A stretch of DNA of 23,688 nucleotides from an uncultured Salinarchaeum sp. (GCA_964520165.1 CAZFMU010000007.1:1-23688); one strand, 5' to 3'. Numbered from the stretch's first letter, positions 4,783 through 23,688 are shown. Numbers and translations: made by a program. The notes: a model not told the origin generated them from the sequence alone.

Positions 4783-4785
4783 GTT

Positions 4786-11148: not shown

Positions 11149-12692
11149 AGATCACCCAGCTGCTGCTCAATCTTGCGAGCCGTATCATAATCTGACTTGA
11201 TTTCGAAGTAGCGTTGCTCAGCGTCATCTTTGATTTGCTCGTATTGCGTGAGATCGATCATCTTCTGTTCTTTTGTCTGCCGAATCTCCTCGGCCTCCTG
11301 CTCAAGATCTTCAACGCTGTCCATGATCGGATCACGGAATGCATAGTAGAGGCTCCGCCATACCTCGCCGAAAAGTGCGCCACTATCAGCAACCGCAACG
11401 GGATCAACTGATCCGTGGACATCGCAGTAGCCTTGCTGGCCAAGGTCGTCAAGTCGGTTGTACGCACGCCTAAGTTCATCGTCAAGTTCAGGGATAGCTG
11501 CGGCAATGTCATCACGGATCTGGCCGGTGAAGTCCGACTCAGCACCACGATTGAGATCGGAGTCGCTGAGGGCCATGCCGAGACTCCCACTTTCAGCGCT
11601 TAGGATCTCGTCGACAAGATTGAGCTCGTCACGGATCGTCTCGATCCGATCTTCAAGACACTGTGGACAGACCTGCTTTTTCCCTGCAGTAGTGATCTGG
11701 TTGGCGTGATCGTCGTAGTGCGCCTCAACACGCTGTTGATTCGTCCGAAGGCGGGTCACTAGCTCCGTCGTAATCTCTTCCACACGGTCGCGACTCGCCT
11801 GCGCCTGCTCAAGCATATCGCCGCTCACCGCCTGTTCCTCAACGCCACGAATATCATCTACGGTCTCCTCACACTCGTTAAGCTGCTGACGAACCGATAC
11901 CTCTGGAATATCACGAGAAGGAGCCAAGAGCGAGTTACGCGATAGTTGTCTTATACTTTGTGCCACTTGGTTGTTTGCATGAACTGCTGCAGTAATCGTA
12001 TCACGTTCAATATTGCCTGCAACAGCGGCCATCGAATCAATCTGGTTGATGATCGGCTGCTCAAGACGGCGGTGGTCAGTAGCGTCCGGCGCGAACTGGG
12101 TAGCAACCGACGGATCAATGATAGATTCCTTACCGAAGGCCTCGTCATACTGTTGTTTGTAGGCAACAACTTCTTGTTGATTATCAAACAACAGTTCAGA
12201 GTCAATATATGCAAGTTCAAGATTTGTTTTAGGGGCAGTGTTCAGCCCATCGAAGATCATGTGCTGATCCTGGTAAGGGATCAAATAGAGAGGAACCCCT
12301 ATTTGTGAAACGAACGAAACGGTTCCATCTGGCTCGTTCGTCTCAAGCTTCGATCGCTGGGTGAGGATTAGCTCTTTCGCATCTTGATACTTACTAAATG
12401 CGTAGATACCGACACCAAGCGCAGCGACGAGACCTATACTGGCAAGGATCAATGCTTCCCCGGCCAAACCAATAATGATAAGCAGTATACCACCGGCCAC
12501 CCCACCGCCGCCGAGTTGTTGCATGCGCCGCTGTCGGGATTCAGCCTCAGTAATTGTATCCTCATACCGTTTCTGTCGGTCGAAGTAGCTGCCTGCAGCG
12601 TCGGCAAACGCCATGGCAAGTACTTCTGTTCGAGCGCGTTCATGCGGTATCCGTTCCCCAGCGTCTACCATTCCCGGAGCTTGATATGACAT
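11145..12692 (-). CDS. Membrane protein with an N-terminal 2-TM hairpin and a long helical cytoplasmic region (515 aa)
   Basis: The ORF track extends to 12779, but the first ATG giving a halophile-type N-terminus (MSYQAPGMVDAG...) is at 12690-12692 and was verified. Hydrophobic segments: GVAGGILLIIIGLAGEALILASIGLVAALGVGIYAF. It heads a run of four tightly coupled genes with overlapping start/stop codons (12692 to 8440). Confidence 0.7.
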   Translation of the reverse strand: MSYQAPGMVDAGERIPHERARTEVLAMAFADAAGSYFDRQKRYEDTITEAESRQRRMQQLGGGGVAGGILLIIIGLAGEALILASIGLVAALGVGIYAFSKYQDAKELILTQRSKLETNEPDGTVSFVSQIGVPLYLIPYQDQHMIFDGLNTAPKTNLELAYIDSELLFDNQQEVVAYKQQYDEAFGKESIIDPSVATQFAPDATDHRRLEQPIINQIDSMAAVAGNIERDTITAAVHANNQVAQSIRQLSRNSLLAPSRDIPEVSVRQQLNECEETVDDIRGVEEQAVSGDMLEQAQASRDRVEEITTELVTRLRTNQQRVEAHYDDHANQITTAGKKQVCPQCLEDRIETIRDELNLVDEILSAESGSLGMALSDSDLNRGAESDFTGQIRDDIAAAIPELDDELRRAYNRLDDLGQQGYCDVHGSVDPVAVADSGALFGEVWRSLYYAFRDPIMDSVEDLEQEAEEIRQTKEQKMIDLTQYEQIKDDAEQRYFEIKSDYDTARKIEQQLGDL

Positions 12693-12787
12693 TACACAGG
12701 GGAGTAATATCATACAACTCAAATAAATGCTTGGGCGCTGCTGCACCCGCCGCAAGTGCTTTATCACTAACAAAACCATTTCTCATC

Positions 12788-12943
12788 ATGCACGTTCAGG
12801 TGCTTGAATTCGAGTACAACGCTACAGACGCCAAATCAATTGAGACGCGCCTGAATAACTATTTCTCACACCACGAAGTCACAAACGTTGAGGTTGTTGA
12901 TACTGGTGGTCGAATCCTTGTCTTTTGTTTCTCCGCGGAGTGA
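12788..12943 (+). CDS. Possible small acidic protein (51 aa; MHVQVLEFEYNATDAKSIETRLNNYFSHHEVTNVEVVDTGGRILVFCFSAE)
   Basis: ATG at 12788. Halophile-like composition. It occupies a 312-nt gap between two minus-strand genes. There is no homology evidence, so it could equally be non-coding promoter space. Confidence 0.25.
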   Translation: MHVQVLEFEYNATDAKSIETRLNNYFSHHEVTNVEVVDTGGRILVFCFSAE

Positions 12944-13004
12944 ATGCGTTGTGATGCTAAGTGACACGACACGTCTAATTTTCTACCAATATCATGTACG
13001 GCAC

Positions 13005-14837
13005 TTACTCAAGCTGAGTGCCACACTCAATGCAGTACGTCGTACCAGGATCGTTTTGACTCCCACAGTCCGGACAGGTAATCGCTTCTTCGGCCGAGGA
13101 GCCTCTCTCAGAAGATTCGGCTTCACTCTCCGATGGTCCACCGCTCTGCACAATAGTCGTATCGCCACCAGAGGACGCTCCCGAATCGCCACTAACGATG
13201 ACATTATCGGAGGTATCCTCAGCAGCGGCAGCTGCCGCCTCACCCATGTTGTCCATCGCGGATTCGGTAGTCTCCTGCATCCGGTCCATTGAGTCGTCCA
13301 TCATCTCGTTCATCTCTTCGCGGAACTGCTTTTGATCCTTGACGCGCTGGCGTTCCTTTTCGGCACTATTAGCCTCCTGTCGCGCCTTCGCGAGTTCGTC
13401 GCTGTTCTGTGCCCCTAGCGAGTCGAGTTGATCCGCATTGAGGTGTTCGGCCTTGTCCATCTTCGCAAGTTCTGTCAGCGCGTCGGTATCCGTGTCGTCG
13501 AGACTCGCGAGCGTTTGTGCGTCCACGTTGTCGCGGGCACTAAGTCGCTTCTTTTCGACAGCGATATCATGCGACTCCTTTTCCATCTCAAGTTCTTGAT
13601 TGCGAGCCTTCTTGTCGAGTTTTTGCTCGTCTTTTTTCTGCTTGATGTCGAGCAGATCCTCTATTTCGGACACGTCCTGCTGGTGCTCGTCGGACCGCTC
13701 CTTCATCGACTGCTCGTGTTTGATATCGCGTCGATTGACGGCCGACTCCGTCCGATGGGTCTTCAGCTGTTCGTCGTGTTCGACGGTTTCCTGCTCGGCG
13801 TTGTGTGCGTGTCGCCGCTGCTGGTCCTCAAGATCCTGTTCGTGATCAAGTGCCTGGGACTTGATTTCGTGGTCGGCCGCCTGTTCGACCGTCTCGCGAC
13901 GCACCCGCTGTTCGTGTGTGTGTACCGTATCGTCGGTCTCGCGTTCGCGCTCGCGACGGTCAAGTGCCGCCGTCTGGTCAGCCAGTTCTTCTCTCTCCTC
14001 CCGGATATCGAGTTCCTTGTTGCGTTCGCGGAGTTCATCGCGGTCGTCCGCGTAGTCGAACGACAACAGTTCAATGAGTGACAGGCCATTTCGCTGGAAT
14101 GCGTCCTGGCACACTGTCTCGAGTTCGTCGCGAATTCGCTGTCGGACAGCCTGGTTACCATAGAGTTCATCGTGGGAATACTCGTGCAGCGCCGACTCAA
14201 CAGCATTGCGCATGGCCCGTCCGAGATCTTGGTTGAGGGCTCCGGTCGTCAGGGCGTCGCGATCTGCCATCATCGACTCGAAGAACCGTTCGAAGTCGTC
14301 GATCGACACGACGACTTCGAGTGTTGCCGATACAGGATAATCGTTTTGCGTACGAATATCCTCGAAAGTTCGCCGAACCGTCTTCTGTCCTTCGTCAACA
14401 AGGATAATGGTGAGATCGGGGGATCGGCGGAGTTCAACGATACGCTGGGGAAGGCTATCAAGTGTGTGCTGGCCAGGGCCGAGCGTTTCGGTGAGTTCGC
14501 CGTTCTCAAGCAGTAAGGCCCGGGTGCCCTGCTGGATCCGGATACTCTCGGTCCGCGTGAGTTTGCCGAGGAGGCTACCGGCACCGAGTACCTGCTCGTC
14601 AACACGTTTCGCAAACTCATCATCAGCCAGTCGCCAGCCGCCGCTTGTAGGAGCCTTCCCACTACTTTCATGTTCGGCACCTGCGGCAAGTTCCTGGCCA
14701 CAGTTACGACAGAACTGCGCCTCTACGGGGTTTGACTCGCCACAACTCGGGCAAGTGCGTACAAGCGGCTCTCCACATTCCTTGCAGAACTCGGCCTGTG
14801 CTGATACATCGGCGTTGCAGTTTGGACAGTGAGGCAT
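13005..14837 (-). CDS. Flotillin-like protein: N-terminal double zinc ribbon, SPFH/band-7-like domain, long E/R/Q-rich coiled coil, and C-terminal zinc ribbon
   Basis: ATG verified at 14835-14837. The N-terminus has CPNC..CKEC..CPSC..CRNC and the C-terminus CPDCG..CIECG. Residues ~95-250 follow the band-7 pattern: SIRIQQGTRALLLENGELTETLGPGQHTL, then LTIILVDEGQKTV, then TFEDIRTQNDYPVSATLEVVVSIDDFERFF, then a helical segment. About 250 aa of charged coiled coil follow, resembling the flotillin EA-repeat domain. Confidence 0.8.
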   Translation of the reverse strand: MPHCPNCNADVSAQAEFCKECGEPLVRTCPSCGESNPVEAQFCRNCGQELAAGAEHESSGKAPTSGGWRLADDEFAKRVDEQVLGAGSLLGKLTRTESIRIQQGTRALLLENGELTETLGPGQHTLDSLPQRIVELRRSPDLTIILVDEGQKTVRRTFEDIRTQNDYPVSATLEVVVSIDDFERFFESMMADRDALTTGALNQDLGRAMRNAVESALHEYSHDELYGNQAVRQRIRDELETVCQDAFQRNGLSLIELLSFDYADDRDELRERNKELDIREEREELADQTAALDRRERERETDDTVHTHEQRVRRETVEQAADHEIKSQALDHEQDLEDQQRRHAHNAEQETVEHDEQLKTHRTESAVNRRDIKHEQSMKERSDEHQQDVSEIEDLLDIKQKKDEQKLDKKARNQELEMEKESHDIAVEKKRLSARDNVDAQTLASLDDTDTDALTELAKMDKAEHLNADQLDSLGAQNSDELAKARQEANSAEKERQRVKDQKQFREEMNEMMDDSMDRMQETTESAMDNMGEAAAAAAEDTSDNVIVSGDSGASSGGDTTIVQSGGPSESEAESSERGSSAEEAITCPDCGSQNDPGTTYCIECGTQLE

Positions 14838-15145
14838 GGGTACTGGGTGAAAGGGGTATTGCCCTTCCTTTTGATAGCGAGGATGTGGTTACCCCGGAGG
14901 TTCACTAGATGGGGACTGTCCGGGACTCCACAACCACTGAAGGAAGAGCTATGGTATGGTTATTGTTTGACTTGATGTGTTGTTGTTACAAAAACCAGCC
15001 TGATAAAACTTAGCGTCACACGCGATCAATTGGAAGCTCAAGCAGTATCCTGTAAGGCCACGATTGGACGACTTGTGCAACTGAGCAGAGTTCCACGGGA
15101 CCACTTTGCGTAAGATTCAGTAGATCCCTAACAAGATCAGAGGAC

Positions 15146-17353
15146 GTGACCAGGTGGTCGCGTCGGGCAATACTCGGCGGCATTATCGGTGGGACCGGCG
15201 GAGCGATGGGGCTGACCGAACGAGCCCGGGCCCAGTCCGGCCGTCGCAAGTGGCCCTCATTTGCGTGTGACACGCAGAACACGGGGGCAACCCCTGCACG
15301 GCCGCCAGAAACCTCGCCAGCAATAGAGTGGACAGCTGAGGTGAACGGTGCCGTGCTGTCGACAGCGGCGATAGCCGACGAACGGGTGATTGTTGGCGAC
15401 GAAACAGGTGTCCTTCACGCCCTTAACGCGTTGTCGGGAGAGCGGCTGTGGACGTTTGACACCGCAGATCGCATTAGGTCGACACCCACGGTTCGAAACG
15501 GAACAGTTGTCGTTGGGAGCGATGACGGAACGCTCTATGGACTCTCGACGACCGGCGAGCACTACTGGGAGTTCGAAACAGAGGGTCCGATTGTTGCGTC
15601 ACCGGCCCTCGTAGACGGCACTGTTTATGCCGGCAGCTACGATGGAACAGTATATGCTATTGACGTGACCAACGGTGATCCAGTGTGGATGACGGAGACG
15701 GGGGGGCTGATTGCATCGTCCGCAGCGGTGGCCGACGATACAGTGTATCTCGGCAGTAGCGACCAGCAGATGTATGCGCTCGACGCAGCGACGGGAGAGT
15801 CCGTGTGGCAAACCGAGGTGGAGGCTGAGATCGCCGCGTCGCCAGCAGTCAGCGGCGGAACCGTATTTATCAATACCGGGAGCGGGGAAACATATGCATT
15901 CGATGCTCGTTCCGGAAACCAACGGTGGTCCTTCGAGATGGACGGGATGGCCGGCACCTCGCCCGCAGTAATGGACGGGACAGTGTACCTGAGTGAAGGG
16001 CTAACCGGCACACGGGTTCATGCGGTGAGCGTGACGACAGGAACGCATAGGTGGACGGTTAATACCGAAGCGGCGGTTCAGGGCTCGCCGGCGGTCGGAG
16101 GCAAAACTATGTACATTGGTACCGGTGATGGACAGCTGTATGCCATTGGCACGTCCAATGGACAGGTGCGATGGACGATCAATCTTGATGGCCCCATTCA
16201 AGCCGGTCCAGCACTCGTTAATGGTGGGGTCATCGTTGGGACGACGGATGCAACCGTGTACGCCCTGGGAAACGAACAGTTCATGAGTGTCCCGGGCGGC
16301 CCGGGGCTCCCGGGAGGCGTCGGTGCACTGATAACCGCGGGACTCGGTGTCGGCGGCGGGACTTGGTGGTGGTGGCGTCAACGGGGTCGCTCATCTTCCA
16401 CCGACACTTCCAAGCAGTCCCAATCCGATTCTGCGGGGTCGTCAACCACAAGCGGTTCTGAGGCGGCTGCCGATATTACGCCGACCGAGATTCCCGACGA
16501 AATGACAGATCACCCGAAGATTCCTGAGACCGTGCCAGCACCAGCGAAGCGCTCGCTTGAGTATCGCTCGTTCCAGACGAAGACGCAGATCGGGAGTGGT
16601 GGCAATGCTGATGTCTATCGTACGACAACAGCTGACGGAGCCGAACTTGCAGTCAAAGAACCACATGTTACGGGAACGATCCACACAGAGACCGTCGAAC
16701 AGCTCCTCGAAGAGGCCGAGACGTGGGGTCAACTTGATGACCACGACCACATCGTGAAGATAGTCGACTACGGTAGCGATCCAGTACCCTGGATCGCCAT
16801 GGAGTATATGGACGGAGGGACGCTTACGCAACGAGCAGGCAATATGGGCGACCGGCAGGCACTCTGGACAGCAATCGCCGTCACAAAAGCGGTACGACAC
16901 GCCCACCGTCGTGGGGTTGCGCATCTTGATCTCAAGCCAGCGAACATCCTCTTTCGATCAGTCAAGGACAGATGGGACGTTCCCAAGGTCGCCGACTGGG
17001 GCCTTTCGAAGCACCTCTTAGAGCACTCACATAGCATCGAGGGACTCTCGCCACAGTACGCCGCCCCAGAGCAGTTTGATCAGGATCGAGGAGTCGCCGA
17101 TAACGTGACCGATATCTACCAGTTGGGAGCCGTTCTGTACGAACTATTCACTGGGCGACCACCGTTCGAGGGGCGACCGACCGAGATCATGCAGTCAGTA
17201 CTTGCCACCGAACCGCAACCACCGAGTTCTCTCGTAGAAGGGGATCTTCCACCGGCACTCGATGATATCCTTATGAAGGCCCTGGCGACCAGTAAAGGAG
17301 ATCGGTACGACGATATTGTCTACCTCAGAGACGATCTGCGGGATCTGTATTAG
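15146..17353 (+). CDS. Receptor-like Hanks-type Ser/Thr protein kinase: Tat signal, 8-blade PQQ-like beta-propeller ectodomain, single TM, cytoplasmic kinase domain (catalytically intact)
   Basis: GTG start. The N-terminus MTRWSRRAILGG is a twin-arginine motif. Eight repeats of the form V(Y/V)xGSxDGxxYAxDxxxGxxxW are present. A TM helix (GALITAGLGVGGGTWWWW) is followed by an S/T-rich juxtamembrane linker. Kinase motifs: Gly loop GSGGNADVY, the conserved Lys in ELAVKEP, helix-C Glu (EEAETW), catalytic loop HLDLKPANIL, DWG in place of DFG, and APE (YAAPEQ). Confidence 0.9.
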   Translation: MTRWSRRAILGGIIGGTGGAMGLTERARAQSGRRKWPSFACDTQNTGATPARPPETSPAIEWTAEVNGAVLSTAAIADERVIVGDETGVLHALNALSGERLWTFDTADRIRSTPTVRNGTVVVGSDDGTLYGLSTTGEHYWEFETEGPIVASPALVDGTVYAGSYDGTVYAIDVTNGDPVWMTETGGLIASSAAVADDTVYLGSSDQQMYALDAATGESVWQTEVEAEIAASPAVSGGTVFINTGSGETYAFDARSGNQRWSFEMDGMAGTSPAVMDGTVYLSEGLTGTRVHAVSVTTGTHRWTVNTEAAVQGSPAVGGKTMYIGTGDGQLYAIGTSNGQVRWTINLDGPIQAGPALVNGGVIVGTTDATVYALGNEQFMSVPGGPGLPGGVGALITAGLGVGGGTWWWWRQRGRSSSTDTSKQSQSDSAGSSTTSGSEAAADITPTEIPDEMTDHPKIPETVPAPAKRSLEYRSFQTKTQIGSGGNADVYRTTTADGAELAVKEPHVTGTIHTETVEQLLEEAETWGQLDDHDHIVKIVDYGSDPVPWIAMEYMDGGTLTQRAGNMGDRQALWTAIAVTKAVRHAHRRGVAHLDLKPANILFRSVKDRWDVPKVADWGLSKHLLEHSHSIEGLSPQYAAPEQFDQDRGVADNVTDIYQLGAVLYELFTGRPPFEGRPTEIMQSVLATEPQPPSSLVEGDLPPALDDILMKALATSKGDRYDDIVYLRDDLRDLY

Positions 17354-17418
17354 CCATGAGCGGGATGGTGCTGTACTCGGATCGCCCGCTGAACTATCGG
17401 CCGCGGTGGTGGAGATAA

Positions 17419-19614
17419 ATGCAGCTTGATCGCAGTCGTTCACTATCGCGACGAGGGGTCCTCAAAACAGCAGGGGTAGGGGTCACCGCTGCTGCTGTTT
17501 CCACATCGAGTACAGCGGAGTCGCAGTCGTCCTGGTCAACATTCGGTTACGATCCTCAAAATACTGGATATTCCAAGGAGGCAACCGAAGTACACAACCC
17601 CAAGGTGGCGTGGCGATTCGAAACACAACAGAGTGTCAATTCGTCACCGGCCGTGTACGAGGACACGGTTTATACTGGTAGTGGTGATGGACGGGTCTAC
17701 GCAATCGATGCTACGACCGGAGCGAAACGGTGGGACTATCGAACAGCCGGCGGCGTCAGTTCGTCACCGACCATCACCGCTGATACCGTTTATGTCGGGA
17801 GTTCAGACGCCACGGTCTATGCACTCAGTCGGACAGACGGGAGTGAACGCTGGCGGTATCGTACTGGAGCCGGAGTCTTCTCATCACCGACAGTAGTGGA
17901 CGATACCTTGGTTGTTGGGAGTCTTGATGGCGCCGTGTACGCGCTTGATACGGCAAACGGTGAAGTCCGTTGGACCCACGAGACCAACGGTGAGGTGTGG
18001 GCAACACCCGCCGTCGCCGACGGGGTTGTATTCGTCGGCAGCCGGGACCGACAACTATACGCCCTCGCGGTTGACTCGGGGACCAAACAGTGGGACCGAA
18101 CGACCGGGGGTCCGATCGATTCACCGCCGGCGATACGCGGTGATACCGTCTATGTCGGAAGCCTCGATGGCAGCGTATACGCCTTCACTCTTGATGGTCG
18201 GCAACGGTGGACGGCCGAAACAGACGGCAAGTTCGCGTCATCCCCAGCGGTAACAACCGACTCAGTGTACATCGGAAATCGCAACGGCAAGGTGTACGCA
18301 TTCACTGCGGGCGATGGCACCCGGCGGTGGACAGTCGAAACCGGCGGGCGGGTTTTCTCGTCCCCAGCAGTCACCACGGGACGTGTCTATGTGGGAAGCG
18401 GCGATGGAAGGATCTACGCGATTAACGCGACCACCGGGCGCACCAGATGGGATGTCGCAACCGGGGACGGGATCTTTTCCTCTCCGGCCATCGCCGATGC
18501 AACACTGTACATCGGGAGCACCGACGGAAACCTCTACGCAATTGCCGATGCAGCGACTCCATCATCACTCCCTGGCCCTCTCACGCAGCAGGAGTTAGCG
18601 CTCGCGCTCTTGGGTGGAGCCAGCATTGGCGTAGGAGGACTCTGGTGGTTCCGGCGCCGCAGAGGGGGGACCTCCGATGGCCCGGACGCTTCCTCGCCAT
18701 CGAACGGAACGCCACGAGCGACCGCCGCGAATCTGCCGGATCTAGACCCAGCGCCGGCTATCGAGGCAGCGACCTACAATCGGTTCACCGACCGCGAACG
18801 AACGGGGACGCAGGCCGGTATGCACGTCTACCGGGCGACGATCCGAGCGGATGGAGAGTACCGGACCGCGATTCTCCGAGAACCAGCGGTAACCGATACG
18901 CTTGAACTCCGGTCTGTCGGCGCGTTCAGCGAGCGTGTCGAGACGTGGGCGAAACTCGATGATCACAACCACATCGTCTCGGTATACGGTTACGGGCAAG
19001 ATCCCATCCCCTGGGTCGCCCATGAAGCCGTCGACGGGCCGTCACTCAACGCCGTCGTCGGGACAGTTGGCATCCCGCAGGCCGTGTGGATTGCCCTCGG
19101 CGTGACAAAGGCCGTCCGTCACGCACACCAGCGAGGAGTCTACCACGGAGCCTTGCAGCCGGCAGTATGTCAGCTTCGACAAACAGAAGACGCGTGGCCT
19201 GTTCCAAAGATTGCTGGGTGGGAACGCGATCAAAATCCATTCGACAACCGAGCAATCGCCGACCGTCCAATACTGCCGTATGCCGCCCCAGAGCAGCTCC
19301 GGGGGAGCAGATCACCCGACGACGTGACCGATGTGTACCAGCTCGGAGCCGTCTTATACGAACTCTTTACCGGACAACCACCTTTTGAAGGATCCTCACA
19401 AGAAATTAAAGAGGCAATCAAACATGAGTCTCCGACATCGCCGGACGAGGTTGCCGAGTCGGTGCCACCGGCGATCGCGGACCCCCTCCAGACCTGTCTC
19501 GCAAAACGACCAGCCGATCGGTATGACTCAACCGTGTACCTCCGCGATACCCTCAGTGATCTGCTCAAAAACTATCTCGATGTAGGAGACAATACTGTCG
19601 TGCTGGAAAACTAA
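17419..19614 (+). CDS. Receptor-like pseudokinase: Tat signal, 8-blade PQQ-like beta-propeller, single TM, degenerate kinase-like domain
   Basis: ATG verified at 17419. Tat motif SRRGVLK. Same architecture as 15146..17353. The kinase domain has lost the Gly loop (GTQAGMHVY), the conserved Lys (AILREP), the catalytic Asp/Lys/Asn (HGALQPAVCQL in place of HLDLKPANILF) and the Mg-binding Asp (AGWE in place of ADWG). The overall fold markers are kept: DDHNHIV, DPIPWVA, APEQ and DVYQLGAVLYELFTGQPPFEG. Confidence 0.9.
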   Translation: MQLDRSRSLSRRGVLKTAGVGVTAAAVSTSSTAESQSSWSTFGYDPQNTGYSKEATEVHNPKVAWRFETQQSVNSSPAVYEDTVYTGSGDGRVYAIDATTGAKRWDYRTAGGVSSSPTITADTVYVGSSDATVYALSRTDGSERWRYRTGAGVFSSPTVVDDTLVVGSLDGAVYALDTANGEVRWTHETNGEVWATPAVADGVVFVGSRDRQLYALAVDSGTKQWDRTTGGPIDSPPAIRGDTVYVGSLDGSVYAFTLDGRQRWTAETDGKFASSPAVTTDSVYIGNRNGKVYAFTAGDGTRRWTVETGGRVFSSPAVTTGRVYVGSGDGRIYAINATTGRTRWDVATGDGIFSSPAIADATLYIGSTDGNLYAIADAATPSSLPGPLTQQELALALLGGASIGVGGLWWFRRRRGGTSDGPDASSPSNGTPRATAANLPDLDPAPAIEAATYNRFTDRERTGTQAGMHVYRATIRADGEYRTAILREPAVTDTLELRSVGAFSERVETWAKLDDHNHIVSVYGYGQDPIPWVAHEAVDGPSLNAVVGTVGIPQAVWIALGVTKAVRHAHQRGVYHGALQPAVCQLRQTEDAWPVPKIAGWERDQNPFDNRAIADRPILPYAAPEQLRGSRSPDDVTDVYQLGAVLYELFTGQPPFEGSSQEIKEAIKHESPTSPDEVAESVPPAIADPLQTCLAKRPADRYDSTVYLRDTLSDLLKNYLDVGDNTVVLEN

Positions 19615-19644
19615 TTTATAGATCGGTTGAACAGTAGACGTTGT

Positions 19645-20229
19645 ATGGGGACCGGTCAATCATGGGGAGCAGACGGTGCGATATTCGCCGTTGCGACGAT
19701 TATTCTTGTTGGGACATCGGTACTCGCGATGCCCGCACTCGCACAGCAGGATGCAGCGGATGTTGCTGGCGATCTCTCATGTGTCGACGAGAGCCACACG
19801 GAAATGGCAGATCGAATCAGTTCACTCGCAGATCGTGGGACCGAGGAGTTGCCGGCCTCGCTCCAGAGTCGAATCGCTGGCGAGCGCATTGAGATCACGA
19901 TCGGAGACTCGACAAAGTTCACCGCACGCGTTGATCCCAGAGCGAACGTTCAAGAGGTGAGTACTGGCAGTCCAACCAACCCAACACTACTGATTTCGAC
20001 CGATTGTGAAACCATCGACCGAATCGCCCAATCGGCGACACCACAACGCGAACTTGAGGGAAGTGTCAGTAACGGTGCAATCGACATCCACAGCCCGAGT
20101 CCACAGCGCGATGCTGCGGTCTCGTATGGAAGTAAAGCCGTCCAGACGTACCACATCGCAAGCGAGGGAGACACTGGGACGGCCGGTGACGCTGCCGATG
20201 GGTTCAGAAATGGTCTCGTGATGTACTAA
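19645..20229 (+). CDS. Secreted or membrane-anchored hypothetical protein (signal-peptide-like N-terminus; about 195 aa)
   Basis: The track start at 19627 is TTG. The first ATG at 19645 gives MGTGQSWGADGAIFAVATIILVGTSVLAMPALAQQ, which has a hydrophobic core and an AxA-like site. Acidic mature part with 2 Cys. It is GC-rich like the flanking kinase genes, and the next gene starts 2 nt after its stop. Confidence 0.6.
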   Translation: MGTGQSWGADGAIFAVATIILVGTSVLAMPALAQQDAADVAGDLSCVDESHTEMADRISSLADRGTEELPASLQSRIAGERIEITIGDSTKFTARVDPRANVQEVSTGSPTNPTLLISTDCETIDRIAQSATPQRELEGSVSNGAIDIHSPSPQRDAAVSYGSKAVQTYHIASEGDTGTAGDAADGFRNGLVMY

Positions 20230-20230
20230 T

Positions 20231-20803
20231 ATGAGCGCACCGACTACAATGCAGTCCGTTGCAGACCAGTGGGGTATCACCCGGTATCACCTCGGCTTCG
20301 CCGGAGCACTCGGAATCGGTGCAGGGATTCTTCCCCCTGAGGGGGCCGTGACGATTCTCGGTTGGGCCGGCGGGTTCCTCGGCGCGATAACGGGGGCATT
20401 CCTGCTGACCGGGATCGGCGTTGTTGCACTCCGGTCAGCCGACGAGTGGCATCCCCGAGAGCATCTGACCAAAGAGGCGCCGGATACCGGCTTTAAACAA
20501 GCCGTATTCCTAACTATGAGCGGACAGCTATTTGTGCTCGGCACGGCCCTAACAGCCGGGGTACTAATGCGTACAATCGTGGTTCTTGTGGCCCCGTTCA
20601 ATCTGCTCATCTCCGGAGCGGTATTCCGCGATTACGGGCGCCTTGAGGACAATGAGGTTCGGTTCGATCGGTCACGGCCGCAGTATGCGGTATTGGCCCT
20701 CCTGCTTGGAACCGCTGGGGGGCTTTATTACTGGTACCGCCGTGGACGGGCCCGCGGTAATCTTCCGACGGAAGACGACGAGATTGACGAAGAAGCCTCC
20801 TGA
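20231..20803 (+). CDS. Integral membrane protein (about 4 TM, 190 aa), hypothetical
   Basis: ATG verified at 20231. Hydrophobic segments lie at about residues 19-40, 42-66, 91-113 and 115-135 and again after residue 150. The C-terminal tail is acidic. Confidence 0.7.
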   Translation: MSAPTTMQSVADQWGITRYHLGFAGALGIGAGILPPEGAVTILGWAGGFLGAITGAFLLTGIGVVALRSADEWHPREHLTKEAPDTGFKQAVFLTMSGQLFVLGTALTAGVLMRTIVVLVAPFNLLISGAVFRDYGRLEDNEVRFDRSRPQYAVLALLLGTAGGLYYWYRRGRARGNLPTEDDEIDEEAS

Positions 20804-20816
20804 CGGCCGGCGGTTG

Positions 20817-20825
20817 GATTTTTAT
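20817..20825 (+). terminator. Oligo-T tract (ggatttttatc) 16 nt after the stop at 20803, preceded by GC-rich cggccggcgg; archaeal-type terminator candidate for the kinase operon
   Basis: Archaeal termination commonly occurs at runs of five or more T. This is the only such run near the end of the 15146..20803 co-directional gene block. Confidence 0.3.
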
Positions 20826-20926
20826 CGTTATATAATCATACATTCGCGTCTGGAGTGAACAGCTACAAATTCCGACACACGTCGGTGAGAAGCCGCACAA
20901 TGACGCTATACTCTCAGCGAACGTAA

Positions 20927-20934
20927 TTTTATAA
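20927..20934 (+). promoter_or_regulatory. TATA box (ttttataa) centred about 28 nt upstream of the ATG at 20959, suggesting a leaderless transcript
   Basis: The position fits an archaeal BRE/TATA at -26 to -30. AT-rich spacer. Confidence 0.4.
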
Positions 20935-20958
20935 CGTCACGATCCGTGATATTCAGAT

Positions 20959-22476
20959 ATGGCGACAGAGGATGCTGGGGACAGGCGCATTCCATCGATT
21001 GCAGATTCAGTTCCAAATCGGATTGAGGCAGCGTTCGACGATTTTACCGAGGTTGATAAGCTTGGGTCTGGCGGGAATGCAGATGTAACAAAAGTTGAGT
21101 TCGATGGCCGGGGGCCCGACACGGTGGCGATCAAACAGCCACGAATGCAGGGCACACTTGATCAGGAGTCGATCAAACAGTTCGTCGATGAAGCAGAGAC
21201 TTGGAACAAGATTGATGATCACAACCACATTGTCGGCGTCCTTGACTGGAATTCTGAACCGCTGCCGTGGATCGCGCTTGAGTATATGGACGGCGGCGAC
21301 CTGAACACCCGAATCGGCGATCTCTCGATTGCCGAAGCTCTCTGGATCGGAGTGGGGACGGCCAAGGCCGTACGACACGCACACCGACGGGGTGTGGCAC
21401 ATCTCGATCTCAAGCCAGAGAATATTCTCTTTCAGACAACCGAGGCGGACACCTGGGACATCCCCAAGGTGACTGACTGGGGGCTCGCCAAGATGCTCTT
21501 AGATCACTCGAAAAGTGTTGAGGGACTCTCACCGGAATATGCGGCTCCGGAACAGTTTGATGCCGATAGTTACGGAGCCCCAGACGACATGACTGATATT
21601 TACGCGATCGGAGCAGTTGTCTACGCGTCACTGACCGGCAACCCACCGTTTGTTGGGGCCTCCTCGGCGGTCATGCAGGGTGTGCTCACCGAAGCTCCTG
21701 ACCCTCCAAGTGAGACCGTTGATGACCTGCCCGACGGTACCGATGCAGTTATCCTGAAGGCGCTTGCCAAGAACAAGGACGCACGGTACGAGTCGGTGCT
21801 TGACCTCCGTCGGGATCTTGAGACATTGCTTGAACGTGAGTTGGGGACCGCAGATGACGAGGCTGAACTTATCGCTGAGGCAGGCCGATCCGCGAATATC
21901 ACCGACACGACGATCGCGGAGTCTGCCCCAGCCGGTGCCAAGACCGAAACTGAGCATCCGTCAATCACCCTCAGTGACCGTACATACGAGTTTGTGCCGC
22001 CAGGGAGTGCACCGAACGACGCCCTTCGGAATCTTTCGTATCTGAGCCTCGGCATCGGAAGCGCGACAATTATTATTGCGCTATTCAATATCCCGGGCCT
22101 GGTTGGAATCAGCGCGATAGGACCACTGTTAGGAGGAGCGTTCCTGATTCATGGGGCGTCCCAGGCACGAGCGACGGTTCGATCATATTGGGGTGGAATG
22201 AGCCTCTACGGCCTTGCTTTTTTAATTTCGCTCTCGGTTGGTAGTGTACTCGTCATCAGTCTCGTCCTTCTCGGGATATACTGGGCCACACAGGGTGGCG
22301 AGTCGATTGATCACCCGGGATGGGTACCGGACGGACTGCAGACAGTTGCCAATGGAGAACTTGAACTTCCAAGCCCAATTAGCAAGGTGATCAATACGTA
22401 TCGGCGTGATACGACAGACACTACCGATACAGCTGAGCAGTCTGGACCCAGCGAAGGTGAGACACACACGGACTAA
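20959..22476 (+). CDS. Hanks-type Ser/Thr protein kinase (catalytically intact) with a C-terminal multi-TM membrane anchor
   Basis: ATG verified. Motifs: GSGGNADV, VAIKQP, EAETW, HLDLKPENILF, DWG and APEQ, so all catalytic residues are present. An acidic linker is followed by hydrophobic segments (LSYLSLGIGSATIIIALFNIPGLVGISAIGPLLGGAFLIHGA and MSLYGLAFLISLSVGSVLVISLVLLGIYWA) and an acidic T/D-rich tail. Confidence 0.9.
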   Translation: MATEDAGDRRIPSIADSVPNRIEAAFDDFTEVDKLGSGGNADVTKVEFDGRGPDTVAIKQPRMQGTLDQESIKQFVDEAETWNKIDDHNHIVGVLDWNSEPLPWIALEYMDGGDLNTRIGDLSIAEALWIGVGTAKAVRHAHRRGVAHLDLKPENILFQTTEADTWDIPKVTDWGLAKMLLDHSKSVEGLSPEYAAPEQFDADSYGAPDDMTDIYAIGAVVYASLTGNPPFVGASSAVMQGVLTEAPDPPSETVDDLPDGTDAVILKALAKNKDARYESVLDLRRDLETLLERELGTADDEAELIAEAGRSANITDTTIAESAPAGAKTETEHPSITLSDRTYEFVPPGSAPNDALRNLSYLSLGIGSATIIIALFNIPGLVGISAIGPLLGGAFLIHGASQARATVRSYWGGMSLYGLAFLISLSVGSVLVISLVLLGIYWATQGGESIDHPGWVPDGLQTVANGELELPSPISKVINTYRRDTTDTTDTAEQSGPSEGETHTD

Positions 22477-22665
22477 GCATTCTGAGGAGACTACGCTCAA
22501 TATCACCTGAACAAATGACGGAAGATATAATCTATATTAGCTGAAGCAACAGATTATCTCGGTTAAACTCGATATCCAATGGCAGTGTTTATTTCAGCAT
22601 AAATGCCTACACTGTTAATCAACATGAAATTCCCTACATAACTGCTAGTCACCTTTTATCGATAC

Positions 22666-23688
22666 TTACAGATGTTCATTAAGCGCATCTCGGAAATGAA
22701 TAACTGTATCAAACCTTTCTGATGGGTTACTATCCAGCGCCTTTTGAATGACTTCCTCAATACCCGCATCGGAATTCACAGACGGAGTTGAATGTGAGTG
22801 ACTTGGGGGTGATCCGGTTAAAGCCTCATATGTAGTCGCTCCCAGACGGTAAATGTCTGCTTGTTCTATCTTTGGGCTCTCAGTCGCCGTGGGTAACTGG
22901 TACGGGTCACGACGTGGAACAAGTTGATCCAATATCCCACGGAGCGTTACGCGCATGTCGTCATCAACTAGAATGGATTCGGGTGTGAGTGCCTCATATA
23001 CTCCGCCGTACCGCTGAACGTGATGAACAGCGTCGCAAGATTTGATTATCGTTTTGATTACCTGCGTCTCGGTGAACTCATCAACGCGGTCTGACAGCGA
23101 AGCGGAAGTAGCTGGCTCTACGGCTGCCCAAGGTAAGGGTTCTCTACCATGTGCATGGACAGTCAAAAGATCGGGATGGGCGTCCATCTCAGCCCACAGC
23201 CTAATGTGCTCTGAAATCTGATCTATTTGGTCATTTGTGAGTGTCTCCGTCTTTTTTCTTGAGGGCTGAATTACCCAGACAGTCGTATTCTCGGCTGATG
23301 CACTTAGGATCTCAATACCGTCGGTGCTAATAATGCTATCCTCTATATTGATATCATCATATCCGTTGATATCAAGTGTTGGAGATATTCTGGAATTTAC
23401 TGCTGTTTCTTTCCGGGGGTTTCTAGGATTACTCCTAGACCCATTCGCATTATTATCACTATCCGATGATGTCGCGAGCTGATATCCTAAATAGCCCGCA
23501 CCGATGGTTGCCAAACTTCCTCCCGCGAGCACCACTGGATTCGTTGTCAAATTTTTCGCTTGACTGAAAAACAACATAGGGGCGCCTGTACTATTACCAG
23601 GTTCTCTCTGGGTGGTATCTGATTGTTGAGTTCTGGATGTAGTTCCATCAGATCCATCGGGGTGAGACTCAGACGAATCTCCTGTGGT
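22666..23688 (-). CDS. Degenerate kinase-like (pseudokinase) membrane protein in lower-GC sequence; the ORF is open to the window edge and probably partial
   Basis: Recognisable kinase-fold remnants aligned to the neighbouring kinases: RLWAEMDAHPDLLTV, EPLPWAAVEPA and ADIYRLGATTYEALTGSPP. The conserved Lys, the catalytic loop (YEALTPESIL) and DFG (RGI) are all lost. A TM helix (VVLAGGSLATIGAGYLGYQLA) precedes the domain. The first ATG is at 23575-23577, but the reading frame continues without a stop for 37 more S/T/D-rich codons to position 23688. Confidence 0.65.
   Translation of the reverse strand, partial: TTGDSSESHPDGSDGTTSRTQQSDTTQREPGNSTGAPMLFFSQAKNLTTNPVVLAGGSLATIGAGYLGYQLATSSDSDNNANGSRSNPRNPRKETAVNSRISPTLDINGYDDINIEDSIISTDGIEILSASAENTTVWVIQPSRKKTETLTNDQIDQISEHIRLWAEMDAHPDLLTVHAHGREPLPWAAVEPATSASLSDRVDEFTETQVIKTIIKSCDAVHHVQRYGGVYEALTPESILVDDDMRVTLRGILDQLVPRRDPYQLPTATESPKIEQADIYRLGATTYEALTGSPPSHSHSTPSVNSDAGIEEVIQKALDSNPSERFDTVIHFRDALNEHL

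What the first reader, a model, noticed from the sequence alone, without database searches (positions are those of the whole stretch)
20959..23688. Second kinase/pseudokinase pairing, convergent, with different membrane topologies
20959..22476 is an intact kinase whose membrane anchor is C-terminal, with 3-4 TM helices after the catalytic domain. The convergent 22666..>23688 gene is a heavily degenerate kinase-like domain, preceded by a TM helix and an S/T-rich linker that continue off the window. Its composition is clearly lower in GC than the PQQ-kinase block. There are thus four kinase-fold proteins, two active and two dead, within 9 kb, each with a different way of attaching to the membrane.
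Basis: seen in the sequence. Interest (0 to 1): 0.6.

Follow-up and report, generated by a model that had tools for sequence, protein, structure and literature searches.

The report
Haloarchaeal receptor kinase and pseudokinase array
The two convergent genes are a working membrane protein kinase and the tail of a 737-residue sensor protein with a dead kinase domain, and that sensor belongs to a conserved, apparently undescribed family found in uncultured salt-loving archaea.

Summary
20959..22476 encodes an intact Hanks-type Ser/Thr kinase (K505) with a C-terminal 3-4-helix membrane block. 22666..23688(-) is the 3' part of a kinase-fold gene that has lost every catalytic motif.

A 99.9% identical contig supplies the rest of that gene (K737, 737 aa). 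It has a twin-arginine signal, a PQQ-type beta-propeller, a stalk, one TM helix and a pseudokinase. That is the same architecture as the two upstream PQQ-kinases, so "four different membrane attachments" is wrong.

The locus is an array of seven kinase-fold genes, three active and four dead. K737 belongs to a conserved family of 45 clusters at 50% identity. All 55 relatives checked carry Y..L...S instead of H.D.K..N; LRG for DWG and Trp for the beta-3 Ala are conserved in at least 90% of a 23-sequence alignment. The family turned up only in low-GC hypersaline metagenomes.

In those metagenomes the genes sit directly after a conserved 195-aa/659-aa gene pair of a Vps4-like ATPase/PP2C module, and next to K747-type active kinases. 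That module also lies in this window.

The K505|K737 boundary is most likely a junction of two modules (GC 0.56-0.60 versus 0.48), not a dedicated pair. A non-catalytic co-receptor role for K737 is inferred, not shown.

The parts
20959..22476 (+). K505: an intact, non-RD Hanks-type Ser/Thr kinase of 505 aa with a C-terminal membrane anchor
   Evidence: Pfam Pkinase E 2.3e-33. PknB E 2e-31. All catalytic motifs present.
21046..21834 (+). K505 catalytic domain (aa 30-292)
   Evidence: Extent of the Pfam and PDB alignments. Motifs GSGGNADV / VAIK / HLDLKPEN / DWG / APE.
22030..22299 (+). K505 C-terminal hydrophobic block (aa 358-447), 3-4 predicted TM helices, followed by an acidic T/D-rich tail
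   Evidence: Uncharged stretches 358-403 and 409-447, with Kyte-Doolittle peaks of 2.1-2.6. No homologue of this module was found.
22477..22665 (.). 189-bp AT-rich (GC 0.37) convergent spacer. It is the compositional seam between the two modules.
22666..23688 (-). 3' part (aa 398-737 plus the stop codon) of K737, a 737-aa receptor-like pseudokinase. The 5' part (RR signal and PQQ propeller) lies beyond the window end.
   Evidence: The frame is open to the window end. The full gene is on L001 11708..13921(-), a contig 99.945% identical to the window. Pfam PQQ_2 E 2.8e-50.
22669..23370 (-). K737 pseudokinase domain (aa 504-737). It has a kinase fold, all catalytic motifs lost, Trp at the beta-3 Ala position, a shortened activation segment and no alpha-G helix.
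23371..23463 (-). Cytoplasmic juxtamembrane linker (aa 473-503). It is polar, rich in Ser and Asn.
23464..23553 (-). Uncharged G/A-rich segment holding the single TM helix (aa 443-472, core PVVLAGGSLATIGAGYLGYQLA). The G.GY..Y motif is conserved in the family.
23554..23688 (-). Extracellular S/T/D-rich stalk (aa 398-442) joining the propeller to the TM helix
15146..17353 (+). K735: an active PQQ-propeller receptor kinase, first gene of the array
   Evidence: Its best full-length relative is Haloglomus L017_708_3008, 46% identity.
17419..19614 (+). K731: a 'shallow' pseudokinase of the same architecture (VAIK is AILR, HxDxKxxN is HGALQPAV, DWG is GWE)
   Evidence: Its TAT signal passes the NCBIfam cut-off. 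A likely counterpart, L017_3124_5454 (42% identity), follows an intact kinase in Haloglomus.
19645..20803 (+). Two small genes (194 aa with an N-terminal hydrophobic segment, and a 190-aa multi-TM protein) that travel with K735/K731
   Evidence: 37% and 44% identical to the two genes in the same position in Haloglomus L017.
1081..7471 (.). Conserved companion module. It comprises a 659-aa coiled-coil protein (1081..3060 -), a 195-aa protein (3057..3644 -), a 216-aa helical protein (4132..4782 +), a Vps4/CdvC-like AAA ATPase (4786..5943 +), a PP2C phosphatase (6019..6735 -) and a zinc-ribbon protein with an FHA-like N-terminus (6827..7471 -).
   Evidence: Pfam AAA and PP2C. CdvC model E 1.3e-49, below cut-off. 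MIT E 0.011. Synteny with kinases and pseudokinases in 9 genome loci and 8 metagenome loci.

Best explanation
What is shown:
- The finding straddles the middle of a roughly 17-kb array of seven kinase-fold membrane proteins in an uncultured haloarchaeon.
- K505 is a catalytically intact, non-RD Hanks-type Ser/Thr kinase. Its cytoplasmic catalytic domain is tethered by 3-4 C-terminal TM helices, and it has no sensor domain.
- The convergent gene K737 is a type-I receptor. It has a twin-arginine signal, an extracellular PQQ-type beta-propeller, an S/T/D-rich stalk, one G/A-rich TM helix, a polar juxtamembrane linker and a cytoplasmic pseudokinase.
- K737 belongs to a conserved family derived from the haloarchaeal PQQ-kinases.
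- In all 55 family ORFs checked, Y..L...S replaces H.D.K..N. In the 23-sequence family alignment, LRG replaces DWG and Trp replaces the beta-3 Ala at 90% conservation or more, and HHV.RYG is near-invariant.
- In K737 and its two paralogues in this array the G-loop is gone, the beta-3 Lys is hydrophobic and the activation segment is shortened. K737 itself also has no alpha-G helix in its model.

What is inferred:
- K737 does not bind ATP or phosphorylate anything.
- It acts as a ligand-sensing, non-catalytic co-receptor or scaffold. It would pair through its kinase-like domain and/or its small-residue TM helix with an active paralogue.
- The partner is most probably the K747-type PQQ kinase that accompanies this family wherever longer contigs are available.
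- K737 either modulates that kinase allosterically or offers its S/T-rich linker as a phospho-docking site. The PP2C phosphatase in the same island would reset the signal.
- The output is probably the conserved Vps4-like ATPase / coiled-coil module, behind which these pseudokinase genes normally sit.
- The K505|K737 tail-to-tail adjacency is a junction between two modules: K735-K731-194-190(-K505) at GC 0.56-0.60, and K737-K713-K760-K747 at GC 0.48-0.56. It is not a dedicated pair.
For: Architecture:
- L001 is 99.945% identical to the window and extends it. The full K737 has the RR motif MNRRQFV and Pfam PQQ_2 at E 2.8e-50.

Kinase fold and descent:
-.
- Both families share the haloarchaeal motifs W...D.H and PLPW.

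Loss of catalysis across the whole family:
- 55 of 55 family ORFs lack the catalytic Asp. By comparison, 67 of 73 complete ORFs of the active family are intact.

Selection rather than decay:
- 45 clusters at E<=1e-30.
- 19 invariant and 20 near-invariant columns at 30-45% pairwise identity.
- A confident fold.
- Population variants in the domain are 5 synonymous to 3 non-synonymous.

Modularity:
- 24 of 39 members have PQQ propellers; the rest have other ectodomains.
- 31 of 39 have RR motifs, and a G-rich TM segment ending in G.GY..Y recurs through the family; Tyr463 of K737 is conserved in at least 90% of the 39 aligned members.

Clustering:
- 21 of 37 family-bearing metagenome contigs carry a second kinase-fold gene, although most are under 8 kb.
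- In 8 contigs the order is 195aa, then 659aa, then pseudokinase(s). L091 shows PP2C | ZnR <- AAA <- 216 | 195 -> 659 -> P -> P <- A.
- K747's best full-length relatives (40-46% identity) are exactly the active kinases adjacent to family members.
- K760(+) and K747(-) are convergent and 4 bp apart, like the P/A pair in L091, which is 8 bp apart.

The module seam:
- GC and GC3 values.
- Conservation of the K735-K731-194-190 block in Haloglomus.
- K505 has only domain-level relatives.
Against: - No direct evidence of any physical or functional interaction. Every functional step rests on gene neighbourhood and on analogy with PknB dimers, the MviN pseudokinase and eukaryotic receptor pseudokinases.
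- ATP binding was not modelled. The Trp-in-pocket argument comes from alignment register only.
- In this genome the pseudokinases do not sit behind the 659-aa gene. Nothing kinase-like lies there, so the local wiring may differ from that of the relatives.
- K505 is physically the nearest active kinase to K737. An analogous N-kinase plus C-terminal-TM protein sits next to a family member in L081.
- The host taxon is unknown, and the family was not found in any GTDB species representative. Expression and function therefore cannot be tied to any known physiology.
- The ESCRT-like identity of the companion module is not established.
Confidence: 0.6

Rival explanations
1. K505 and K737 form a dedicated kinase/pseudokinase pair. 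K737's propeller would supply the sensor that K505 lacks, and K505 would supply catalysis.
For: - The genes are immediately adjacent and convergent, with a 189-bp spacer.
- K505 has no ectodomain.
- In L081 an N-terminal-kinase plus C-terminal-multi-TM protein lies directly upstream of a family member.
Against: - K505's membrane module has no relatives in any fetched locus.
- Most neighbours of family members are other family members or K747-type PQQ kinases.
- There is a GC/GC3 step across the spacer.
- K505 lies downstream of a block (K735-K731-194-190) that is conserved elsewhere without any such pseudokinase.
Confidence: 0.15
2. K737's kinase-like domain keeps a non-canonical activity, such as nucleotide binding or catalysis through relocated residues. 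The new invariant residues (HH..R, Y125, D148, E169) would supply it.
For: The domain has many newly fixed polar residues. Precedents exist among 'pseudokinases' (WNK, SelO, SidJ; reviewed in PMC12599244).
Against: - The G-loop, beta-3 Lys, alpha-C Glu, HRD Asp, Asn and DFG Asp are all lost together.
- Trp replaces the adenine-contacting beta-3 Ala in at least 90% of members.
- In K737 the activation segment is shortened and alpha-G is absent.
Confidence: 0.1
3. K737 is a decaying duplicate with no function in its kinase-like part.
For: - Pfam does not recognise the domain above its cut-off.
- The gene sits in a compositionally mosaic island with IS and toxin-antitoxin remnants.
- Eight of the 23 population variants fall in this domain.
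Against: - The ORFs are intact in all 12 contigs.
- A family of 45 clusters shares 39 invariant or near-invariant columns.
- The replacement motifs are the same in 55 of 55 members.
- pLDDT is 93, and the variants are mostly synonymous.
Confidence: 0.04
4. The island is an anti-virus defence locus. Its kinases would work like PD-T4-6, MADS or BREX PglW, and its AAA ATPase like IetA.
For: PADLOC hits: PD-T4-6 at E 1e-46, mad6 at 2.6e-42 and IetA at 2.7e-43. Toxin-antitoxin genes and transposase remnants lie at both ends of the contig.
Against: - The hits cover only the generic kinase or AAA cores. The matching NCBIfam models (MAD6, IteA) score far below their curated cut-offs.
- No partner genes such as IetS, methyltransferases or PglX/Z are present.
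- Tat-exported extracellular sensor domains do not fit cytoplasmic detection of infection.
Confidence: 0.06

Closest known systems
Bacterial receptor Ser/Thr kinases of the PknB/PknD type (M. tuberculosis)
   Same: - They are the closest solved relatives by sequence and fold: K505 at E 2e-31, the family profile at E 1.2e-21, Foldseek at E 5.8e-14.
- They are single-pass membrane proteins that couple an extracellular sensor (a beta-propeller in PknD) to a cytoplasmic Hanks-type domain.
   Different: - The domain order is reversed: sensor first and kinase last, which requires Tat or Sec export of the N-terminal propeller.
- The organism is an archaeon.
- All active members here are non-RD (HLD).
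- K737 has lost catalysis.
PQQ-repeat kinases AfsK (Streptomyces) and RqkA/DR2518 (Deinococcus)
   Same: A Hanks-type kinase is fused to a PQQ-type beta-propeller. The propellers match the C-terminal part of the NCBIfam AfsK model, for example at E 8.5e-35 for K737. PQQ-repeat STKs were noted in PMC1262709.
   Different: - Those proteins have the kinase N-terminal and the propeller C-terminal.
- They have no RR signal and no TM helix between the domains.
- They are active enzymes.
- PQQ binding is reported for RqkA and is untested here.
ActPs1 bacterial pseudokinases (reviewed in PMC12599244)
   Same: All three catalytic motifs are degenerate. The G-helix is missing, as it is in the K737 model. 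They are associated with a PQQ_2 domain.
   Different: - They are actinobacterial, and the PQQ domain is C-terminal to the pseudokinase.
- No sequence-family relationship was tested.
- The signature motifs here (VW.., HHV.RYG..Y..L...S, LRG..D) are those of the family described here.
MviN/MurJ pseudokinase domain of M. tuberculosis, and eukaryotic receptor pseudokinases (HER3, plant BIR2-type)
   Same: A membrane-tethered dead kinase domain acts as a scaffold or allosteric partner. In MviN, bulky aromatic residues fill the ATP pocket (PMC12599244), like the conserved Trp here. That a receptor pseudokinase signals through an active paralogue is my own knowledge.
   Different: The relationship is analogy only. 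No interaction, phosphorylation or FHA recruitment was demonstrated here.
STK/STP-associated archaeal ESCRT-like loci ('Main' and 'Halo_FHA' clades; Makarova et al. 2024, PMC11188069)
   Same: Haloarchaeal loci that combine a Vps4-like ATPase, an upstream helical ESCRT-III-like gene, membrane Ser/Thr kinases and a PP2C phosphatase. An SPFH plus Zn-ribbon protein is described there for a different (Meth_adaptin) clade. The window holds the same kinds of gene, in a conserved order.
   Different: - The parts of the paper I read do not mention pseudokinase receptors or PQQ-propeller kinases in these two clades.
- Membership of this locus is not established: MIT, ESCRT-III and FHA all tested inconclusive.

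Membership tests
Catalytically competent Hanks-type Ser/Thr kinase (Pfam PF00069), applied to K505 | Scores above the Pfam gathering threshold across the whole domain | tested here: met
   116.1 bits against 31.7, profile positions 2-251 of 263.
Catalytically competent Hanks-type Ser/Thr kinase (Pfam PF00069), applied to K505 | G-loop, beta-3 Lys, alpha-C Glu, catalytic Asp/Lys/Asn, DFG-type Asp and APE all present | tested here: met
   GSGGNADV / VAIK / EAE / HLDLKPEN / DWG / APE. It is non-RD, with HLD instead of HRD.
Catalytically competent Hanks-type Ser/Thr kinase (Pfam PF00069), applied to K505 | Phosphotransfer activity | not testable with these tools
   Needs an in vitro kinase assay.
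Protein-kinase fold, applied to the K737 C-terminal domain | Bilobal kinase fold, homologous to known kinases | tested here: met
   hhalign 100%, E 7e-44. Family profile against PknB E 1.2e-21. Model pLDDT 93 and Foldseek PknB E 5.8e-14.
Active protein kinase, applied to the K737 C-terminal domain | Catalytic Lys, Asp, Asn and Asp, and the Pfam threshold | tested here: not met
   Lys is Ile, Asp is Ala, Asn is Ser, DFG-Asp is Leu, and the G-loop is absent. Pfam gives 18.9 bits, below 31.7, and no hit on the full-length protein.
Pseudokinase (a conserved, non-catalytic kinase-fold family) | The kinase fold lacks catalytic residues, and the replacement residues are conserved across a family | tested here: met
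   55 of 55 members lack the catalytic Asp. There are 19 invariant and 20 near-invariant columns, and 45 clusters at E<=1e-30.
Pseudokinase (a conserved, non-catalytic kinase-fold family) | No nucleotide binding or catalysis | not testable with these tools
   Inferred from motif loss and from Trp at the beta-3 Ala position.
PQQ-repeat receptor kinases (AfsK / RqkA / ActPs1 type) | A PQQ-type beta-propeller in the same polypeptide | tested here: met
   PQQ_2 E 2.8e-50, Beta-prop_ACSF4 2.1e-49, PQQ 2.9e-25 on the full K737.
PQQ-repeat receptor kinases (AfsK / RqkA / ActPs1 type) | Kinase N-terminal, propeller C-terminal | tested here: not met
   The order is reversed in K737, K735, K731, K713, K760 and K747.
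PQQ-repeat receptor kinases (AfsK / RqkA / ActPs1 type) | Binds the PQQ cofactor | not testable with these tools
   The 'PQQ' Pfam names describe a repeat type, not cofactor binding.
Twin-arginine (Tat) exported protein | An N-terminal RR motif followed by a hydrophobic region | tested here: inconclusive
   RR motifs lie near the N-terminus of all six propeller proteins and of 31 of 39 family members. Only K731 passes the NCBIfam TAT_signal cut-off, 18.0 against 16.7.
Archaeal ESCRT-like locus with STK/STP (Makarova et al. 2024) | A Vps4/CdvC ATPase with a MIT domain | tested here: inconclusive
   The CdvC model aligns 6-340 of 370 at E 1.3e-49, but scores 169 bits against a cut-off of 650. 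PAN and CDC48 score similarly. MIT is the top Pfam hit of the N-terminus at E 0.011, below cut-off.
Archaeal ESCRT-like locus with STK/STP (Makarova et al. 2024) | An ESCRT-III-family gene directly upstream of the ATPase | tested here: inconclusive
   The 216-aa protein has a basic N-half and an acidic tail, with a predicted helical hairpin at 27-64 and 67-115, but pLDDT is only 60. Foldseek gave no significant hit; CdvB2, Vipp1 and CHMP appear only at E 0.8-5. Sequence and profile searches were negative.
Archaeal ESCRT-like locus with STK/STP (Makarova et al. 2024) | An FHA-domain protein (Halo_FHA signature) | tested here: inconclusive
   The N-terminus of the Zn-ribbon protein at 6827..7471 has FHA-like motifs (LG..D.TVSR ... 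N..N ... IG). Pfam and PDB profile searches are negative.
Archaeal ESCRT-like locus with STK/STP (Makarova et al. 2024) | A membrane Ser/Thr kinase and a PP2C phosphatase in the locus | tested here: met
   PP2C E 8.5e-16 and the kinases. Synteny is conserved in 9 genome loci and 8 metagenome loci.

The most novel reading that the evidence does not exclude
The dead-kinase receptors are the sensory input layer of an archaeal Vps4/ESCRT-III-like membrane-remodelling machine. Diverse Tat-exported ectodomains (propellers and others) would read the outside of the cell. Their pseudokinase domains would assemble with a shared K747-type kinase. Phosphorylation, reversed by the PP2C, would then recruit an FHA-like adaptor and the coiled-coil/ATPase module to trigger vesicle formation or protein sorting. 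That would be an archaeal analogue of the coupling between receptor pseudokinases and ESCRT in eukaryotes.
Probability: 0.15. Interest if true: 0.8.

Novelty: new variant of a known kind. Interest (0 to 1): 0.5.

Why it matters
Conserved pseudokinase families have recently been catalogued for bacteria (PMC12599244). I found no description of an archaeal receptor-type pseudokinase family in the library I could search.

This family has a clear signature, a modular extracellular sensor and a fixed genomic position: behind a conserved coiled-coil gene of a Vps4-like ATPase/PP2C module, and next to one particular clade of active kinases. That gives concrete, testable partners for asking how dead kinases signal in archaea.

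It also bears on how phosphorylation connects to the ESCRT-like systems that Makarova et al. (2024) linked to Ser/Thr kinases in haloarchaea.

For annotation, it shows that three "PQQ repeat proteins" in this locus carry a kinase-fold domain that Pfam misses.

Tried and rejected
- **Word-index protein searches.** The 303-aa fragment and the K505 C-terminal module each returned nothing, not even themselves. The family profile returned only 8 short fragments. The tool was not informative here, so absence of hits is weak evidence.
- **GTDB species representatives.** A scan with the family profile found no member. The 62 loci fetched with the active-kinase profile contain none either.
- **Plasmid and phage collections.** The plasmid collection gave only distant (21-28% identity) ordinary kinases in protein mode. 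At DNA level only a 120-bp stretch (559..682) matching annotated TnpB/transposase genes was found. The phage collection was not searched.
- **Host organism.** A literature search for the assembly and run accessions found nothing. The contig has no tRNA or Rfam family. Walking to both contig ends found only IS and toxin-antitoxin genes, an ABC transporter and DUFs.
- **Remnant of a pseudokinase gene downstream of the 659-aa gene in this genome.** None found.
- **Defence-system reading.** PADLOC and NCBIfam hits are generic kinase or AAA similarity below curated cut-offs. Rejected as the main explanation.
- **FHA, ESCRT-III and MIT assignments for the companion module.** All inconclusive.
- **Kwon et al. 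2019 (pseudokinases across the tree of life).** The paper could not be read, so prior mention of archaeal families there is not excluded.

Full report
**1. What is at the coordinates**

20959..22476(+) encodes a 505-aa protein, here called K505.
- Residues 30-292 are a textbook Hanks-type kinase domain: Pfam Pkinase E 2.3e-33 and M. tuberculosis PknB E 2e-31.
- All motifs are intact: GSGGNADV, VAIK, the alpha-C Glu, HLDLKPEN (non-RD), DWG and APE.
- After an acidic linker come two long uncharged hydrophobic stretches (aa 358-403 and 409-447), enough for 3-4 TM helices, then an acidic T/D-rich tail.
- This membrane module has no detectable relative.

After a 189-bp AT-rich spacer (GC 0.37) comes the convergent frame 22666..23688(-).
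- It is open to the window end. The ATG at 23577 that the ORF lister reports is an internal Met.
- The last 234 residues align with K505 at 27% identity, E 1e-19.
- Every catalytic element is gone:
  - the G-loop is ISTDGIEI;
  - VAIK is VWVI;
  - the alpha-C Glu is His;
  - HLDLKPEN is YEALTPES;
  - DWG is LRG;
  - APE is LPT;
  - the activation segment and the beta-7/8 insert are shortened.

**2. The missing N-terminus**

The exact K505 protein is encoded on 12 public contigs.
- L001 (GCA_905333455.1) is 99.945% identical to window 10959..23688 and continues 8.8 kb further.
- There the convergent gene is 737 aa (K737). It has MNRRQFV plus a hydrophobic region, a PQQ-type beta-propeller (PQQ_2 E 2.8e-50) and an S/T/D-rich stalk.
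- The uncharged segment NLTTNPVVLAGGSLATIGAGYLGYQLATSS (aa 443-472) follows, then a polar linker and the dead kinase domain.
- This is the same plan as K735 (15146..17353) and K731 (17419..19614). So three of the four kinase-fold proteins in the window attach to the membrane in the same way, and only K505 differs.

Beyond K737 lie three more genes of the same plan.

| Gene | Strand | State |
|---|---|---|
| K713 | - | dead |
| K760 | + | dead |
| K747 | - | active; convergent with K760, 4 bp apart |

- The array then ends. After it come small ORFs, a DUF7342/TumE pair, an ABC transporter with GC3 0.80 and a transposase.
- The total is seven kinase-fold genes in about 17 kb: three intact (K735, K505, K747), one "shallow" pseudokinase (K731) and three "deep" ones (K737, K713, K760).

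**3. Is the dead domain really a kinase fold, and is it under selection?**

An exhaustive HMMER search with window 22669..23370(-) found 45 cluster representatives at E<=1e-30, 208 at E<=1e-10 and 4,982 at E<=1e-3.

Homology and fold:
- A 23-sequence alignment of the close group (A1) has 19 invariant and 20 near-invariant columns at 30-45% pairwise identity.
- Its profile hits PknB in the PDB at E 1.2e-21.
- It aligns with the active paralogues at probability 100%, E 7e-44.
- The AlphaFold model of the window's domain has pLDDT 93.2 and pTM 0.89. Its best Foldseek match in the PDB is PknB at E 5.8e-14.
- The model has the usual N-lobe strands and the alpha-C, D, E, F, H and I helices, but no alpha-G helix.

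The family signature in the alignment is VW(V/I) in beta-3, then W...D.H..L, PLPW, C.A(V/I)HH(V/I).RYG..Y..L...S, LRG..D, Y..P, (V/I)YR.G and P.DR.ET.LH.RD.
- Trp sits where the adenine-contacting Ala of VAIK is.
- The beta-3 Lys is hydrophobic in K737 and its two paralogues (Ile, Ala, Val).
- All 55 family ORFs in the fetched loci have Y..L...S in place of H.D.K..N, and none has the catalytic Asp. By comparison, 67 of 73 complete ORFs of the active family are intact.

Population data:
- Among 12 near-identical contigs there are 23 variable sites in 32.5 kb.
- Eight of them fall in 400 bp of this domain, as a haplotype-like block: 5 synonymous, 3 non-synonymous.

Together this rules out a decaying relic. 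K737 is a member of a conserved pseudokinase family descended from the haloarchaeal PQQ-kinases; both share the W...D.H and PLPW motifs.

**4. Family anatomy and distribution**

- Of 39 full-length representatives, 24 carry PQQ propellers. The rest have other ectodomains (Laminin_G_3, PKD or unassigned). Pfam sees the kinase domain in only 22.
- 31 of 39 have an RR motif near the N-terminus. A G/A-rich uncharged segment ending in G.GY..Y recurs through the family, usually followed by basic residues and a 40-70-residue linker with 17-39% Ser+Thr.
- No member was found in 185,579 GTDB species representatives, nor in the 62 loci around related active kinases, nor on haloarchaeal plasmids.
- A metagenome scan gave 42 loci from hypersaline and soda-lake samples, with GC 0.43-0.54.

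The host of the window is therefore an uncultured haloarchaeon. The evidence for this:
- Halobacteria-type DUFs (DUF7575, DUF7577, DUF7342, DUF7972);
- acidic proteins and RR signals;
- nearest active kinases at 58% identity (kinase-domain alignment) in Haloarculaceae, Halorhabdus and Haloplanus;
- a short stretch (559..682) 92-93% identical to annotated TnpB/transposase genes on Haloarcula and Halorientalis plasmids.

**5. Gene neighbourhood: the main lead to function**

- 21 of 37 family-bearing metagenome contigs carry a second kinase-fold gene, although most are under 8 kb.
- The genes on the left of the window form a module. It comprises the 659-aa coiled-coil protein, a 195-aa protein, a 216-aa helical protein, an AAA ATPase, PP2C, a Zn-ribbon protein and an SPFH plus Zn-ribbon protein.
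- That module recurs next to kinases in Halorhabdus amylolytica, Haloglomus irregulare, several Halonotius species, and the Halovenus and A07HR60 MAGs.
- In eight metagenome contigs the order is 195aa, then 659aa, then pseudokinase (then a second pseudokinase), on the same strand, and in three of them (L085, L090, L091) the ORFs overlap.
- L091 shows the whole unit: PP2C | ZnR <- AAA <- 216 | 195 -> 659 -> P -> P <- A.
- The active kinases beside the pseudokinases in those contigs are the best full-length relatives of K747, at 40-46% identity. The tight convergent P/A arrangement is the one seen for K760/K747 here.
- By contrast, K735-K731-194aa-190aa is a four-gene block conserved in Haloglomus irregulare (46, 42, 37 and 44% identity), with an intact kinase followed by a degenerate one, and no deep pseudokinase nearby.
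- K505 has only domain-level relatives.

The GC figures agree with this split.

| Genes | GC | GC3 |
|---|---|---|
| K735 through the 190-aa gene | 0.57-0.60 | 0.56-0.63 |
| K505 | 0.56 | 0.57 |
| K737 | 0.48 | 0.43 |
| K760 | 0.49 | 0.45 |
| K713 | 0.53 | 0.53 |
| K747 | 0.56 | 0.56 |

I therefore read the K505|K737 spacer as a seam between two modules, not as the centre of a functional pair.

**6. The companion module**

- The ATPase aligns end to end with the CdvC (Vps4) model at E 1.3e-49, but below its cut-off. It scores similarly against PAN and CDC48-D2.
- The best Pfam hit of its N-terminus is MIT, at E 0.011.
- The 216-aa gene directly upstream has a Lys-rich N-half and an acidic tail and a predicted long helical hairpin. 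The model is poor (pLDDT 60) and no fold or sequence search is significant.
- The Zn-ribbon protein has an N-terminal domain with FHA-like motifs. In one locus (L023) the same domain is fused to a kinase. Searches for FHA are negative or weak.
- Makarova et al. (PMC11188069) describe haloarchaeal "Main" and "Halo_FHA" ESCRT-like loci with Vps4, an upstream ESCRT-III gene, membrane STKs and an STP. They propose sorting of phosphorylated proteins.
- The resemblance is strong at the level of gene content, but membership is not established.

**7. Mechanism**

Shown: the architecture, the fold, the loss of catalytic residues across the family, the conservation and the synteny.

Inferred:
- K737 is exported by Tat and sits with its propeller outside and its pseudokinase inside.
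- It cannot bind ATP, because the G-loop is lost and Trp occupies the adenine pocket position. This parallels the aromatic-filled pocket of the MviN pseudokinase.
- It signals by association with an active paralogue, most likely the K747 type. The association would use the conserved N-lobe surface and/or the small-residue TM helix.
- It would act either as an allosteric regulator or as a phospho-acceptor scaffold through its S/T-rich linker.
- PP2C would reverse the signal, and the Vps4-like module is a probable downstream target.
- K505 lacks a sensor and may be a further catalytic subunit of the K735/K731 module.

Rivals are a dedicated K505-K737 pair, non-canonical catalysis, decay, and a defence island. 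They are listed in the Rival explanations section with their evidence. None is favoured by the data.

**8. Novelty and verdict**

Already known:
- PQQ-repeat kinases;
- bacterial pseudokinase families, including one with a PQQ domain and no G-helix;
- the link between STK/STP genes and ESCRT-like loci in haloarchaea.

I found no prior description of the following. The search was limited, and Kwon et al. 2019 could not be read.
- An archaeal receptor-type pseudokinase family with this signature.
- Its restriction to uncultured low-GC hypersaline lineages.
- Its fixed position behind the 659-aa gene and beside K747-type kinases.

I class it as a new variant of a known kind, of moderate interest.

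Noticed in passing
window 1081..7471 and 13005..14837; also L008, L014, L016, L029, L034-L039, L085-L091, L095-L097: A conserved module accompanies the kinases and pseudokinases in many haloarchaeal genomes and metagenome contigs. It comprises a 659-aa coiled-coil protein, a 195-aa protein, a 216-aa helical protein, a Vps4/CdvC-like AAA ATPase with a weak MIT match, PP2C, a Zn-ribbon protein and an SPFH plus Zn-ribbon protein. It resembles the STK/STP-linked ESCRT-like loci of Makarova et al. 2024.
   Followed up: partly
window 22868..23266: Eight of the 23 variable sites found among 12 near-identical contigs (32.5 kb) fall in 400 bp of the K737 pseudokinase domain. They form a shared haplotype (5 synonymous, 3 non-synonymous). 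This looks like a recombination or gene-conversion tract rather than scattered mutation.
   Followed up: partly
window 15146..20803; L017 708..6887: K735 (intact), K731 (degenerate), the 194-aa gene and the 190-aa gene form a four-gene block. It is conserved in Haloglomus irregulare in the same order, with the same intact-then-degenerate kinase pattern.
   Followed up: partly
window 6827..7471 (aa 1-118); L023 3471..3824: [quoted passage not shown] In one MAG it is fused to the N-terminus of a kinase. Pfam and PDB profile searches do not recognise it.
   Followed up: partly
window 559..682 (ORF 519..824): A 120-bp stretch is 92-93% identical to annotated TnpB/transposase genes on Haloarcula and Halorientalis plasmids. 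It is an IS200/IS605-type remnant about 0.4 kb downstream of the 659-aa gene, where relatives carry pseudokinase genes. It has no Rfam family.
   Followed up: partly
L114 1972..6045 against the rest of the 44-kb contig: The composition is strongly mosaic. GC3 ranges from 0.43 (K737) to 0.80-0.82 (a DUF6498 protein and an ABC transporter). A DDE transposase lies near one contig end and a PemK toxin at the other. The whole contig looks like a mobile or recombination-prone island.
   Followed up: no
L001 11708..13921(-), aa ~360-380 of K737, and many family members (P0003, P0004, P0008, P0013, P0016, P0018, P0023, P0033, P0036, P0045): A conserved motif, GSS(E/D)(D/G)SRV..G.LGHH(H), directly follows the PQQ propeller and precedes the stalk. 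Its function is unknown. The His cluster might bind a metal.
   Followed up: no
N-termini of K735, K731 (window 15146.., 17419..) and of K737, K713, K760, K747 (L001): All six propeller receptors start with twin-arginine motifs. If these are real Tat signals, Tat would export a folded propeller while a 270-300-residue domain stays in the cytoplasm behind a stop-transfer helix. That is an unusual class of Tat substrate.
   Followed up: partly
L017_7341_9089, L032_1673_2995, L037_13458_16490: Several haloarchaeal kinases of the active family have Arg instead of the beta-3 Lys (VALR) while all other motifs are intact. They may form a distinct atypical subgroup.
   Followed up: no
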